Assembly (NCBI GenBank): GCA_037310415.1
Contig: CP147780.1
Coordinates: 2,464,001 to 2,528,000, forward strand
Direction of reading: 5' to 3'
Origin: Candidatus Atabeyarchaeum deiterrae
GTDB taxonomy: Archaea > Asgardarchaeota > Atabeyarchaeia > Atabeyarchaeales > Atabeyarchaeaceae
DNA: 64,000 nt
Shown: positions 29,250-31,838 of the stretch, piece after piece
How the letters are laid out: each line of letters opens with the position of its first letter
How positions within the stretch are numbered: position 1 is the first letter of the stretch
Translations under genes and position numbers: made by a program
The notes under the pieces: model-generated
What the model saw: only the letters and a program-made list of their open reading frames with translations
Database searches by the model: none
What the model was told of the DNA's origin: nothing

Positions 29250-30527
29250 TCAGGACCTTAGTACTCTCGCCTTGAGTTCGTTCTCACTTAGATGGTGACC
29301 ACACATCGGGCAGATTCCCTTGACGTGCAACCATTCTATGATATGATCTTCGTGGGCAGAGTTCCCGCAATATGGGCAACGGACAATTCTGTCTACGGAA
29401 CTCAAACCCAATCCGCACACCATGCAGATCGACCCTGATGGCCTCTGTTTCGTCTCATCCTTCAACGCAGTGACTCCACTATCCACTTGTGGGCTCATTC
29501 CAACCCTCCAAACAGAAGCTGCACTTCGTGCAACTATACCGGTACCATTCGTGATAGTAGTTACGGTAGGCGGAACCTTAAGCCCAGATCCCTCTTCAAG
29601 AGAAGTCGAAACACTATCTCTGGGCTCGACGCGACCTGGGTCACGTTGCTCTCCATCCGCTGCACTTCTTCTTCTCATGTATGCTGGTGCTACAAAAAGC
29701 ATTAGCACTACTACCACGATAATACTCACTGTCACTACATTTGAAGCAGGTATTACGAAGTTACCAGATTGCACCGTCACGGTCATGTTAGTGTCAACTG
29801 GCACAACATGTGTGTCCTGAACAGCTGCGGCGCTACTCGTTGGGCTTACGGACGTTGTATAAGTTGTCGCGCCGGAGTTCAAGGGATTAACGCTCGTCAC
29901 ATGGGATGATGCGCCGCTAAATGGATCCCAGGCAATGCCTCCACCAGCATCCAACTTGACAACCCAAGCATTACCAAAACTAGGACCAAACGAGCATGTC
30001 CATCCTGCCACGATGTACCCCCCATCGGAGGTCTGCTCACATGACGCCGCATTATCGCTGCCGCCACCTCCGTAGGCACTCTGCCAAACCACGCCTCCAA
30101 CGGAATCAAGCTTCAAAACCCAGAAATCATACCAGCCTGCGCCAAATGACCATGTGCTTCCCACTACTATGTAACCGCCGTCCGCTGTCTGCTTGACACC
30201 GTATGCGAAATCGTCGTTAGTCCCTCCATAGGTCTTCTGCCAAACCACACTTCCTGTGGAGTCGAGCTTCAAGACCCAGAAATCACCCATATTATCAACA
30301 GTATTTCCTCCTAAACCAAACGAACCTGTCCATCCTGCTACTATGTAGCCTCCATCAGAGGTCTGCTGAATAGAGTATGGCGTATCTTCCATATCGCTTC
30401 CGTAGGTTTTCGCCCAGTAAGTCATGGTTGCAGGGGAATTCTGTCTAACAGCTGAGTTCTTTGGGCTGGGGGTCTGCTGGCTCGGGTTGCCTAACACCAC
30501 TATTGTCGGCAGGGGAGCTATTATCAT
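29250..30527 (-). CDS. Single-pass membrane protein: extracellular beta-propeller-type repeats, S/T-rich stalk, TM helix, cytoplasmic RING-type zinc finger (putative E3 ligase)
   Basis: Three W.KTYG...QTSDGGYIV.G...D.WVLKLD repeats. TM VVTVSIIVVVVLMLFVAPAY followed by RRR. C-terminal CMVC-x12-CPYC-x4-H-x2-H-x3-W-x6-CPMC. Confidence 0.8.
   Translation of the reverse strand: MIIAPLPTIVVLGNPSQQTPSPKNSAVRQNSPATMTYWAKTYGSDMEDTPYSIQQTSDGGYIVAGWTGSFGLGGNTVDNMGDFWVLKLDSTGSVVWQKTYGGTNDDFAYGVKQTADGGYIVVGSTWSFGAGWYDFWVLKLDSVGGVVWQSAYGGGGSDNAASCEQTSDGGYIVAGWTCSFGPSFGNAWVVKLDAGGGIAWDPFSGASSHVTSVNPLNSGATTYTTSVSPTSSAAAVQDTHVVPVDTNMTVTVQSGNFVIPASNVVTVSIIVVVVLMLFVAPAYMRRRSAADGEQRDPGRVEPRDSVSTSLEEGSGLKVPPTVTTITNGTGIVARSAASVWRVGMSPQVDSGVTALKDETKQRPSGSICMVCGLGLSSVDRIVRCPYCGNSAHEDHIIEWLHVKGICPMCGHHLSENELKARVLRS
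29940..30416 (-). repeat. Three intragenic ~50-aa beta-propeller blade repeats
   Basis: QQTSDGGYIVAGWT / KQTADGGYIVVGST / EQTSDGGYIVAGWT, each followed by WV(L/V)KLD. Confidence 0.85.
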
Positions 30528-30758
30528 GAGTACTGTGATTAGTGTAACAAATCCTCTCTTGGTCGCTCTCGACGATCAACTGTATACAAGCCCCATCCAT
30601 TCCTCCGTCCGCGAATCTTCCTCGTGTTCGTACTTTAATGTCTTTCTCTGCTATTTACGTTTTGCCCGTTCGTGGGCAACTATGTTGTTGTGGCCCGTCA
30701 CCATTTTATCAGGCGCGATTACTTCGTGGTTATTAGTTTATGGTCGTAATTGTCTCTC

Positions 30759-31838
30759 TCATGAAAGAAGAGAACAAGGTGTGCCATATGCTTTGGATGG
30801 CTTAGACGAGAAGCTTGCTCTAGTCCAGAGGCATTTGTATAACTCTATTGTCTGTCTTGCGATGGTTCTAGAATCATGCATTCTTCTTACGTACTTCCTG
30901 CCATCTGCTCCAAGCTTCTTGCGCAGGTCGGGGTTTTCGATTAGCAGTTTGACGTTATCATAAAGATTATCACGATTCGTATTCAGGATTGGCAAACCTG
31001 GATAGCATTTTACAAATGCCTTATCGATGCGACACAGCACAGGCTTCCCCAATGCCATGCACTCGACAGCAAAAACGCCATAGGTCTCCGACAGCAACTG
31101 GTCAATGACAATGTCCGCTTCTCTGTATATTTCCAGTGCTTCTTCATGTGGTTTGTTTTCGACCAGTACAAAATCAATATTATATCCTTCTTCTTTGAGT
31201 CTTCTTATAACTGGTAGTACATACTTCGTCCCTTTTCCCTTTCTATTTGACGGCGCGTGAACTATTCTTATTCTATCATTATTCGTACCACAACCTGCAA
31301 ATCTGTATTTTGTCAGATCAACTGACTTCTCAATAACGAGGCTGTTTGGTACGTAGGGCAACAGTGGATAGTCTCCTACTACCAACGCATTAGCATATTT
31401 GCTGACTGTCCTTATTCTTCTCCTTTTTGCATCATCATTATCTTCTTCAAACTTCTCCTTGGCAAGTCGTGTGTAATTTGCCGCAATGTCCATTTGCCTG
31501 ACTTCAGACCCCCAATAATGCATGACTATTTTCTTTCTGAATAACTTCAGAATAGGTAAATCCAGGTAAAAAGGTAACAAACTGGTGCCAAAGTGGAAAT
31601 GAAATACATCATACTTGGCGAAGCATTTCACAAAATTCGCGATCAATGTGATCGCTTTTATCATAGTCGGCTTTTCATTTAGATTAAGGTTTAGATCATA
31701 TTTGTAATTAAGGGCATGACTGCTGCTGACAATCACTTCACTTCTGACACCCAGTGCTCTCTGCGCTTCTGCTATTGTACTCAGTTGTCCAGCAACTTCA
31801 TGAAGTGCGTGTAGCACTCTCGGGGGTCTGCCTCTCAA
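30759..31838 (-). CDS. GT4-like glycosyltransferase
   Basis: HYWGSEVR, HAPSNRKGKGT, DIVIDQL, GVFAVECMALGKPV. Confidence 0.88.
   Translation of the reverse strand: MRGRPPRVLHALHEVAGQLSTIAEAQRALGVRSEVIVSSSHALNYKYDLNLNLNEKPTMIKAITLIANFVKCFAKYDVFHFHFGTSLLPFYLDLPILKLFRKKIVMHYWGSEVRQMDIAANYTRLAKEKFEEDNDDAKRRRIRTVSKYANALVVGDYPLLPYVPNSLVIEKSVDLTKYRFAGCGTNNDRIRIVHAPSNRKGKGTKYVLPVIRRLKEEGYNIDFVLVENKPHEEALEIYREADIVIDQLLSETYGVFAVECMALGKPVLCRIDKAFVKCYPGLPILNTNRDNLYDNVKLLIENPDLRKKLGADGRKYVRRMHDSRTIARQTIELYKCLWTRASFSSKPSKAYGTPCSLLS

What the first reader, a model, noticed from the sequence alone, without database searches (positions are those of the whole stretch)
29250..30596. Receptor-like transmembrane RING protein (ectodomain-TM-RING)
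Seen: signal-like N-terminus, propeller repeats, S/T stalk, a single TM with RRR on the inner side, a low-complexity linker, and a C-terminal C-x2-C-x12-C-x2-C-x4-H-x2-H-x3-W-x6-C-P-x-C zinc finger. Established: the Trp and CPxC match the E2-binding face of RING E3 ligases. Asgard archaea encode ubiquitin E1/E2/RING components, and eukaryotes use ectodomain-TM-RING ligases such as RNF43/ZNRF3. Inference: an archaeal surface-sensing membrane E3, notable for lying inside the glycan island.
Basis: partly seen in the sequence, partly recalled or inferred. Interest (0 to 1): 0.75.

Follow-up and report, generated by a model that had tools for sequence, protein, structure and literature searches.

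The report
Asgard membrane protein with RING tail
An Asgard archaeon encodes a single-pass membrane protein with a small propeller outside the cell and, inside, a true RING finger of the kind used by its own ubiquitin operon, so it is probably a membrane-bound ubiquitin ligase, though one of a large family and with a damaged export signal in this strain.

Summary
The gene is real: a 425-aa minus-strand ORF at 29250-30527. It has three delta-60/DUF5122 propeller blades, an S/T stalk, one TM helix followed by RRR, an ~80-aa linker and a C-terminal eight-ligand finger.

The finger is a RING-H2 variant. Its profile hits solved RING-H2 E3 ligases, and its AlphaFold model superposes on RING domains. 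It is 49% identical to the 86-aa small RING encoded in this genome's own cluster of ESCRT, JAB, RING, ubiquitin, E2 and E1 genes. The genome holds 12 such fingers; three sit on type-I membrane proteins with unrelated ectodomains.

Across 151 genomes of the phylum, the finger family and the E2 co-occur family by family.

Caveats:
A low-depth strain variant and the sister genus keep it.
- The zinc ribbon usually found before the RING has lost all four Cys.
- The linchpin Arg is absent.
- No activity, ligand or expression is shown.

The scan has already reported this architecture on other DNA: 34 notes in at least 20 genomes.

Verdict: a probable membrane-anchored E3 and a new variant of a known kind. 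Interest is moderate.

The parts
29250..30527 (-). ORF of 425 aa (stop codon included): partial propeller, stalk, TM, linker, RING.
   Evidence: Identical protein P0001 is on record on a 2,756,679-base contig.
30528..30606 (-). Remnant of the ancestral 5' end. It holds an SD-like GGAGGA (30601-30606), ATG 30594-30596, TTG 30587-30589, the in-frame TGA 30576-30578, and codons for a basic n-region plus the first half of the h-region (30528-30575).
   Evidence: A 280-base contig of an independent study (depth 2.8) reads GGGG for TTG at 30577-30579. That opens the frame from TTG 30589 and gives an intact signal peptide. The sister-genus orthologue has an intact signal peptide.
30489..30527 (-). 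aa 1-13: residual hydrophobic stretch, i.e. the second half of the former signal peptide.
29925..30422 (-). aa 36-201: three delta-60/DUF5122 beta-propeller repeats (three four-stranded blades).
   Evidence: TIGR02608 and PF17164 sub-threshold on the target. 7570 homologues, most annotated as delta-60 / DUF5122. AF2 model with 12 strands. Foldseek matches cover only parts of larger propellers.
29742..29924 (-). aa 202-262: S/T-rich stalk with one N-x-T sequon (N247), predicted disordered.
   Evidence: Collinear with the stalk of the G023 orthologue.
29679..29738 (-). aa 264-283: the single transmembrane helix.
   Evidence: Kyte-Doolittle 19-residue window scores 2.92.
29667..29675 (-). aa 285-287: RRR stop-transfer on the cytoplasmic side.
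   Evidence: The same basic cluster follows the TM in paralogues L013 and L017 and in G023 L039.
29427..29666 (-). aa 288-367: cytoplasmic low-complexity linker.
29502..29558 (-). aa 324-342: decayed double zinc ribbon. The four Cys positions of the orthologous ribbon now read T324, N327, V339 and V342.
   Evidence: Collinear BLASTP alignment with the G023 152-aa zinc-ribbon-RING protein (37% identity, E 7e-28). A ribbon-like C-x2-C...C-x2-C lies upstream of the finger in 114 of 148 relatives.
29301..29426 (-). aa 368-409: RING-H2-variant finger. Ligands are C368, C371, C384, C387, H392, H395, C406 and C409. E2-face residues are V370, W399 and P407.

Best explanation
The gene encodes a type-I membrane protein of an Asgard archaeon, most likely Atabeyarchaeia.

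Layout:
- Outside the cell is a three-blade DUF5122/delta-60 partial propeller on a probably glycosylated S/T stalk.
- One TM helix with an RRR stop-transfer crosses the membrane.
- Inside is a flexible ~80-aa tail ending in a RING-H2-variant finger. This finger belongs to the family of the small RING E3 (srfp) of archaeal ubiquitin operons.

Proposed mechanism:
1. The finger binds the genome's single catalytic E2 (G000:C1:348421-348894). The E2 is charged with ubiquitin by the operon's E1.
2. The bound E2 transfers ubiquitin to lysines on the protein's own tail or on neighbouring membrane proteins.
3. The tag can then be read by the UEV-Vps23/ESCRT genes of the same cluster, and removed by its JAB/MPN protease.

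Shown: the anatomy, the RING fold, family membership, the orientation rule, the presence of E1, E2 and ubiquitin, and co-occurrence with the E2 across the phylum.

Inferred: E2 binding, ligase activity, the substrates, and any ligand of the ectodomain.

In the reference strain the gene has lost the start and n-region of its signal peptide, so export of the ectodomain may be impaired in this allele.
For: Finger identity:
- The eight ligands are invariant in the 12 paralogues; V370 and P407 are conserved and the Trp is in 10 of 12. In 80 relatives, seven ligands and the Pro are invariant, and the second Cys, the Val and the Trp are above 90%.
- The profile of the finger hits RING-H2 E3 ligases in the PDB: RNF24 1.1e-8, EL5 4e-8, RNF126 5e-7, RNF165/Arkadia ~4e-6, ZNRF1, AMFR, HRD1 and ZNRF3.
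- The AF2 model has core pLDDT 87-94 and a beta-beta-alpha layout.
- All listed (top-50) Foldseek hits are RING, U-box or RING-like zinc-finger domains. RMSD is 1.2 A to RNF165 and RNF24 and 1.6 A to EL5.
- Four paralogues pass Pfam Prok-RING_1's gathering score.

Link to the ubiquitin system:
- The 86-aa finger-only paralogue (49% identical) lies between JAB/MPN and ubiquitin-E2-E1, beside the ESCRT-I/II genes.
- A small ORF of the same family lies within about 1 kb of the E2 gene in 36 genomes listed in both.
- The finger family and UQ_con E2 show the same presence and absence in 27 families of the phylum. Twenty have both and six have neither. In the seventh, both occur in the same single genome of seven. 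Only one genome differs overall.
- Operon small RINGs of this kind are active E3s in vitro (Caldiarchaeum, PMC5654768; Helarchaeia, bioRxiv 10.1101/2023.07.25.550441).
- The Caldiarchaeum srfp has the same oddity of an extra Cys at ligand 3/4, and its I30 and W58 are needed for activity. The target has V370 and W399 at those places.

Orientation:
- Searches support a cytoplasmic finger.

Modular family:
- Within this genome the ectodomains include CarboxypepD_reg and an FG-GAP propeller.
- Elsewhere they include fn3, SBP_bac_5, PPC and DUF5122+fn3.
Against: - The target itself scores below the Pfam thresholds: zf-RING_2 20.5 bits against 27.3, and Prok-RING_1 22.5 against 29.1.
- The linchpin Arg/Lys after the last Cys, needed in the Caldiarchaeum srfp (R69A), is Gly410 here. 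It is not conserved in the family.
- The reference allele lacks an intact signal peptide.
- The upstream zinc ribbon has lost its Cys.
- Only three blades are present.
- In the sister genus the propeller-stalk-TM gene ends without a RING. There the tail orthologue is a separate soluble ORF whose second RING Cys is Gly. So this fusion is young and may be weakly constrained.
- No biochemical data exist for any membrane-anchored member.
Confidence: 0.6

Rival explanations
1. The gene is a decaying or non-functional copy in this strain. It would be a recent fusion of a propeller-stalk-TM module to a soluble zinc-ribbon-RING gene, which has since lost its signal-peptide start and its ribbon cysteines. 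The family may be E3 ligases, but this allele would do little or be mislocalised.
For: - There is an in-frame TGA, and no start codon before ATG 30527.
- Contigs of two runs agree with the reference, while a variant contig and the sister genus have an intact signal peptide.
- All four ribbon Cys are lost.
- Only three blades are present.
- The two halves are separate genes in G023.
Against: - The 425-codon frame is otherwise open.
- All eight RING ligands and the E2-face residues are intact.
- The three blades are modelled with pLDDT above 90.
- A strong TM with RRR could still insert as a signal-anchor.
- The variant allele rests on a single contig at depth 2.8.
Confidence: 0.2
2. The finger is a non-catalytic RING-like zinc module, as in IFT-A or GATOR2 subunits. 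It would tether the surface protein to cytoplasmic partners, for example ESCRT or the cytoskeleton, without ligase activity.
For: - The best Foldseek hit is the IFT-A WDR19 zinc finger, and GATOR2 RINGs also appear.
- The linchpin residue is absent.
- There are 12 fingers for one E2.
Against: - The strongest sequence hits are catalytic RING-H2 E3s.
- The E2-contact residues are conserved.
- Presence and absence match the E2 almost perfectly, and the finger is adjacent to the E2 in 36 genomes.
- Two operon members are active in vitro.
Confidence: 0.15

Closest known systems
Archaeal small RING finger protein (srfp) E3 of ubiquitin operons (Caldiarchaeum subterraneum, PMC5654768; Helarchaeia, bioRxiv 10.1101/2023.07.25.550441); Pfam Prok-RING_1 PF14446
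   Same: - It is the same finger family. The target is 49% identical to this genome's own operon srfp.
- Ligands 3/4 are C-x2-C rather than C-x-H, the 'C3B' oddity described for the Caldiarchaeum srfp.
- A hydrophobic residue lies between C1 and C2, a Trp sits on the helix, and the motif CPxC is present.
- It co-occurs with the E2.
   Different: - It is not in the operon; it lies 2.1 Mb away.
- It is fused behind an ectodomain, a TM helix and a linker.
- The linchpin Arg is replaced by Gly.
- The target scores below the Pfam cut-off.
Eukaryotic ectodomain-TM-RING-H2 ligases: PA-TM-RING (RNF13, GRAIL/RNF128, plant RMR) and ZNRF3/RNF43
   Same: - The layout is type I: an extracellular binding domain, one TM helix and a cytosolic RING-H2 near the C-terminus.
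- The RING profile reaches ZNRF3 (E 0.0037) and RNF13 (E 0.035).
   Different: - The ectodomain is a DUF5122 partial propeller, not a PA domain.
- Ligand 6 is His and ligand 4 is Cys.
- There is no evidence that the whole architecture is inherited rather than assembled independently.
- The ligand and the substrates are unknown.
MARCH / RING-CH membrane E3 ligases
   Same: They are membrane-anchored RING ligases, with Cys at ligand 4 and His at ligand 5.
   Different: - RING-CH is C4HC3, N-terminal, and on two-or-more-TM proteins.
- Here ligand 6 is His, the finger is C-terminal, and the Trp/CPxC signature is that of RING-H2.
Delta-60 / DUF5122 beta-propeller surface proteins of bacteria and archaea
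   Same: Its repeats are 50-65% identical to those of such proteins, and it has the same four-strand blade.
   Different: It has only three blades, against six to eight, and it is joined to a TM helix and a RING. Only two of the proteins examined combine DUF5122 with this finger (P0034 and P0211).

Membership tests
RING-H2 finger (cross-brace RING; Pfam zf-RING_2 PF13639 / Prok-RING_1 PF14446) | Eight Zn ligands with RING spacing | tested here: met
   C368, C371, C384, C387, H392, H395, C406 and C409 are invariant in the 12 paralogues; in 80 relatives seven are invariant and C371 is above 90%. There are deviations: ligands 3/4 are C-x2-C, the 4-5 spacing is 4, and ligand 6 is His.
RING-H2 finger (cross-brace RING; Pfam zf-RING_2 PF13639 / Prok-RING_1 PF14446) | Score above the Pfam gathering threshold | tested here: not met
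   The target scores 20.5 against 27.3 and 22.5 against 29.1 bits. Four paralogues pass Prok-RING_1 with 29.4-40.4 bits.
RING-H2 finger (cross-brace RING; Pfam zf-RING_2 PF13639 / Prok-RING_1 PF14446) | Beta-beta-alpha cross-brace fold | tested here: met
   The AF2 model has core pLDDT 87-94. The listed (top-50) Foldseek hits are RING, U-box or RING-like zinc-finger domains, with RMSD 1.2-1.6 A to RNF165, RNF24 and EL5. Zinc is not modelled.
RING-H2 finger (cross-brace RING; Pfam zf-RING_2 PF13639 / Prok-RING_1 PF14446) | E2-contact residues: a hydrophobic residue between C1 and C2, a helix Trp, and a Pro after C7 | tested here: met
   V370, W399 and P407 are present. In 80 relatives they are >=90%, >=90% and invariant respectively.
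RING-H2 finger (cross-brace RING; Pfam zf-RING_2 PF13639 / Prok-RING_1 PF14446) | Linchpin Arg/Lys directly after the last Cys | tested here: not met
   The residue is Gly410, and the position is variable (G/S/N/H/E) in the paralogues.
RING-H2 finger (cross-brace RING; Pfam zf-RING_2 PF13639 / Prok-RING_1 PF14446) | E2-dependent ubiquitin ligase activity | not testable with these tools
   This needs in vitro reconstitution.
Archaeal srfp family (operon small RING E3) | Sequence homology to the operon-encoded small RING | tested here: met
   The target is 49% identical over aa 364-421 to the 86-aa ORF at G000:C1:347655-347915 (E 1.3e-16; phmmer 4e-19).
Archaeal srfp family (operon small RING E3) | Encoded beside ubiquitin, E2 and E1 | tested here: not met
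   The target lies at C1:2493250-2494527, and the operon lies at 342.6-350 kb.
Archaeal srfp family (operon small RING E3) | Phyletic co-occurrence with UQ_con E2 | tested here: met
   The tallies by family are identical in 26 of 27 families, and only one genome differs.
Eukaryotic ectodomain-TM-RING ligases (PA-TM-RING, ZNRF3/RNF43) | Signal peptide, ectodomain, one TM and a cytosolic RING-H2 | tested here: inconclusive
   The TM, the positive-inside rule and the cytosolic finger are met. The signal peptide is truncated in the reference allele. It is intact in a low-depth variant and in the sister genus.
Eukaryotic ectodomain-TM-RING ligases (PA-TM-RING, ZNRF3/RNF43) | Protease-associated (PA) or PA-like ectodomain | tested here: not met
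   The ectodomain is made of DUF5122/delta-60 propeller blades.
MARCH / RING-CH | C4HC3 ligand pattern | tested here: not met
   The pattern is C4-H2-C2, with the RING-H2-type Trp and CPxC.

The most novel reading that the evidence does not exclude
Asgard archaea may possess receptor-type transmembrane RING ligases that put ubiquitin on membrane proteins for capture by UEV-Vps23 and ESCRT. That would be a prokaryotic forerunner of ubiquitin-dependent down-regulation of surface receptors. In this gene the family's module shuffling would be caught in progress: a propeller-stalk-TM cassette joined to a formerly soluble zinc-ribbon-RING gene, with alleles that differ in whether the ectodomain can be exported.
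Probability: 0.3. Interest if true: 0.8.

Novelty: new variant of a known kind. Interest (0 to 1): 0.5.

Why it matters
Biochemistry on Asgard ubiquitin systems has covered only the small soluble operon RING. What gets ubiquitylated in these cells, and why the ubiquitin genes sit beside ESCRT genes, is an open question; the Helarchaeia preprint says so explicitly.

A family of membrane-anchored RING proteins could supply the missing step, an E3 positioned at the membrane to tag cargo. Its exchangeable extracellular domains include propellers, fn3, Ig-like folds and even a solute-binding protein.

In the full-text library searched, I found no paper describing such archaeal receptor-like RING proteins.

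This particular gene is a weaker exemplar than its neighbours L013 and L017. However, it documents how such proteins are assembled and lost.

Tried and rejected
- Full-length structure model: two composite alignments (A3, A4) meant for this were misaligned by MAFFT. Ectodomain tails were smeared over the tail region, or RING fragments were split. I dropped them and modelled the RING and the ectodomain separately.
- Complex prediction on two copies of the three-blade ectodomain, to test a dimeric six-blade propeller, gave no verdict: score 0.15 against a mark of 0.42.
- The look-up of sequencing runs listed no RNA holder, so expression could not be assessed.
- Searching the two sister-genus genomes with the flanking GT1 protein found nothing. 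Synteny of the glycan island could therefore not be used.
- Foldseek E-values for the 71-residue RING model are weak (3e-3 and up). I relied on which folds were hit and on RMSD, together with the sequence-profile E-values.
- Reading TGA 30576-30578 as a recoded codon was considered and rejected. The variant contig removes it by a 3-to-4-base change that shifts to a TTG start, which points to an indel allele rather than recoding.
- Literature searches for membrane-anchored Asgard RING proteins and for 'Prok-RING' found nothing relevant.

Full report
**What is there**

- The minus strand carries a 425-codon ORF at 29250-30527.
There is no ATG, GTG or TTG between that stop and ATG 30527.
- The protein has three tandem repeats of 52-62 aa (aa 36-201) with the delta-60/DUF5122 signature.
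- It then has a 61-aa stalk with 33% Ser/Thr and a single hydrophobic helix at aa 264-283.
- That helix has no K/R in the 15 residues before it and four after it, including RRR.
- A 79-aa low-complexity linker follows.
- At aa 368-409 lies the finger C-x2-C-x12-C-x2-C-x4-H-x2-H-x3-W-x6-C-P-x-C, exactly as described.

**The finger is a RING**

- On its own the target scores just under Pfam's thresholds for Prok-RING_1 and zf-RING_2.
- The genome holds 12 copies of the finger, with all eight ligands invariant. Four of them pass the Prok-RING_1 threshold.
- A profile of the 12 hits solved RING-H2 ligases: RNF24 1.1e-8, EL5 4e-8, RNF126, RNF165/Arkadia, ZNRF1, AMFR, HRD1 and ZNRF3. FYVE appears only at E 0.05.
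- These alignments show that the second Cys of CPxC occupies canonical ligand 3. The canonical His-4 position is Asn, and the first Cys of CPxC supplies the fourth ligand.
- This is the same 'extra Cys, out of register' feature reported for the biochemically active Caldiarchaeum srfp (PMC5654768).
- An AlphaFold2 model from an 80-sequence alignment is confident in the core (pLDDT 87-94) and has the hairpin-helix layout.
- All 50 listed Foldseek hits are RING, U-box or RING-like zinc-finger domains, with RMSD 1.2-1.6 A to RNF165, RNF24 and EL5.
- The residues whose mutation disables the Caldiarchaeum srfp at the E2 interface (I30, W58) correspond to V370 and W399. Both positions and Pro407 are conserved in the family.
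- The linchpin Arg is not conserved; it is Gly410 here.

**The genome has the partners**

- One cluster at C1:342.6-350 kb encodes ESCRT-I/II-like proteins, UEV-Vps23 and a JAB/MPN protease.
- It also encodes an 86-aa finger-only protein that is 49% identical to the target's finger.
- It further encodes a ubiquitin ending in GG plus one residue, one UQ_con E2 with an HPN...C active site, and an E1.
- This is the arrangement in which Asgard and Aigarchaeota small RINGs were shown to act as E3s.
- Across 151 genomes of the phylum, the finger family (110 genomes) and the E2 (109 genomes) have the same presence and absence in every one of 27 families. Only a single genome differs, and in one family both occur in the same one of seven genomes.
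- In 36 genomes a small ORF of the family lies within about 1 kb of the E2 (same calls).
- Related genomes are not independent, so I count this at family level: 20 families have both and 6 have neither.

**Orientation and family architecture**

- The finger also ends soluble TPR and HEAT/PCI proteins, and two-TM hairpin proteins whose N-terminal zinc ribbons must share its compartment.
- I classified 148 representative relatives:

| Architecture | Count |
|---|---|
| Signal/anchor, ectodomain of 150 aa or more, TM, finger | 28 |
| One TM with a short N-terminus | 35 |
| Two-TM hairpin | 24 |
| Other TM arrangements | 10 |
| No TM | 51 |

- In the 28 type-I forms, K/R averages 0.18 before the TM and 3.2 after it. 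The finger is therefore cytoplasmic.
- Ectodomains are exchangeable. In this genome they include a CarboxypepD_reg fold (L013), an FG-GAP propeller (L017) and the DUF5122 blades of the target.
- Elsewhere they include fn3, PPC, DUF5122+fn3 and a family-5 solute-binding protein.

**What is special, and weak, about this copy**

1. *Signal peptide.*
   - The sister-genus genome G023 has an orthologous N-terminus with a textbook signal peptide.
   - In the reference, the corresponding codons lie upstream of ATG 30527 and are cut off by the TGA.
   - Contigs of two runs agree with the reference, though these runs may be the source of the assembly.
   - A 280-base contig from an independent study (99% identical, depth 2.8) has GGGG for TTG at 30577-30579.
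   - That change opens the frame to a TTG at 30589, 11 bases after GGAGGA, and restores the basic n-region and a full h-region.
   - The published description of this lineage mentions strain variants.
   - One low-depth contig is thin evidence, but together with G023 it shows that the reference allele is the derived, truncated one.
2. *Zinc ribbon.* The tail (aa 280-422) is collinear with a 152-aa soluble zinc-ribbon-RING protein of G023. In the target the four ribbon cysteines read T, N, V and V.
3. *Fusion or fission.* The N-terminal part (aa 136-287) is 42% identical to a G023 propeller-stalk-TM gene that stops right after the membrane helix. The two halves are therefore separate genes in the sister genus. 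The G023 finger has lost its second Cys.
4. *Ectodomain.* It is only three blades and matches only parts of larger propellers. A test for a dimeric six-blade form gave no verdict.

**Surroundings**

- The gene does lie among glycan genes:
  - two DegT aminotransferases and two NAD-dependent epimerase/dehydratases;
  - GT1 and GT2 glycosyltransferases;
  - methyltransferases and an ATP-grasp enzyme;
  - a hexapeptide transferase and a flippase.
- It is separated from them by spacers of roughly 230 and 430 bases.
- Nothing links its function to them. The flanking GT1 gene was not found in the sister-genus genomes.

**Identity of the organism**

- A relative of the family comes from 'Atabeyarchaeia-1' (2.81 Mb), which fits handle G012 of the same family.
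- The window's genome is a 2,756,679-base single contig. The runs that hold the stretch are wetland and freshwater-sediment metagenomes.
- It is therefore most likely the second complete Atabeyarchaeia genome of PMC11291895. This is an inference.

**Verdict**

- The reading as a membrane-anchored RING E3 is the best-supported one (0.6). Activity, substrates and sensing are untested.
- This scan has already described the same architecture in at least 20 other genomes and elsewhere in this genome. I found no paper describing it.
- It is a new variant of a known kind, of moderate interest.

Noticed in passing
window 30576-30589: There is a strain polymorphism in the 5' end. The reference reads TTG at 30577-30579, giving an in-frame TGA. 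One independent low-depth contig reads GGGG, which gives a longer ORF from TTG 30589 with an intact signal peptide.
   Followed up: partly
G000:C1:342626-349948 (outside the window): This is a compact ESCRT-ubiquitin cluster. It holds Vps25/22/28-like genes, UEV-Vps23, JAB/MPN, a coiled-coil protein, an 86-aa RING, pro-ubiquitin (GG plus one residue), E2, and an E1 with a C-terminal Ub-like domain.
   Followed up: partly
P0164 (792 aa, metagenomic relative): A family-5 bacterial solute-binding protein domain (SBP_bac_5, 129 bits) is joined through one TM helix to a zinc ribbon and the same RING. Among the members examined here, this one most clearly suggests small-ligand sensing coupled to a RING.
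   Followed up: no
L038:556-1014 (G023:C146) and L037:507-1037 (G023:C119): In the sister genus the two halves of the target are separate genes. One is a propeller-stalk-TM protein without a RING. The other is a soluble zinc-ribbon-RING protein, beside a DegT gene, whose second RING Cys is Gly.
   Followed up: partly
G000:C1:1778132-1780564 (L019, L020, L022): Three tandem genes encode zinc ribbon / two-TM hairpin / zinc ribbon / RING proteins of the same finger family.
   Followed up: no
G000:C1:2535004-2538960 and 2549476-2550666: The two other type-I RING genes (L013, L017) each lie directly upstream, on the same strand, of another ORF. The one after L013 encodes 1318 aa with a signal-like N-terminus, the one after L017 396 aa. 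These might be partners or substrates.
   Followed up: no
genomes of the phylum: Copy number of the finger varies from 1 to 35 per genome, while the E2 stays at 1-4. This is a hub-and-spoke pattern, with many RINGs per E2, as in eukaryotes.
   Followed up: partly
window 30424-30963 (+): A 179-aa ORF lies antisense to the 5' end of the target and the 3' end of the GT1 gene. It overlaps both and is probably not a gene.
   Followed up: no
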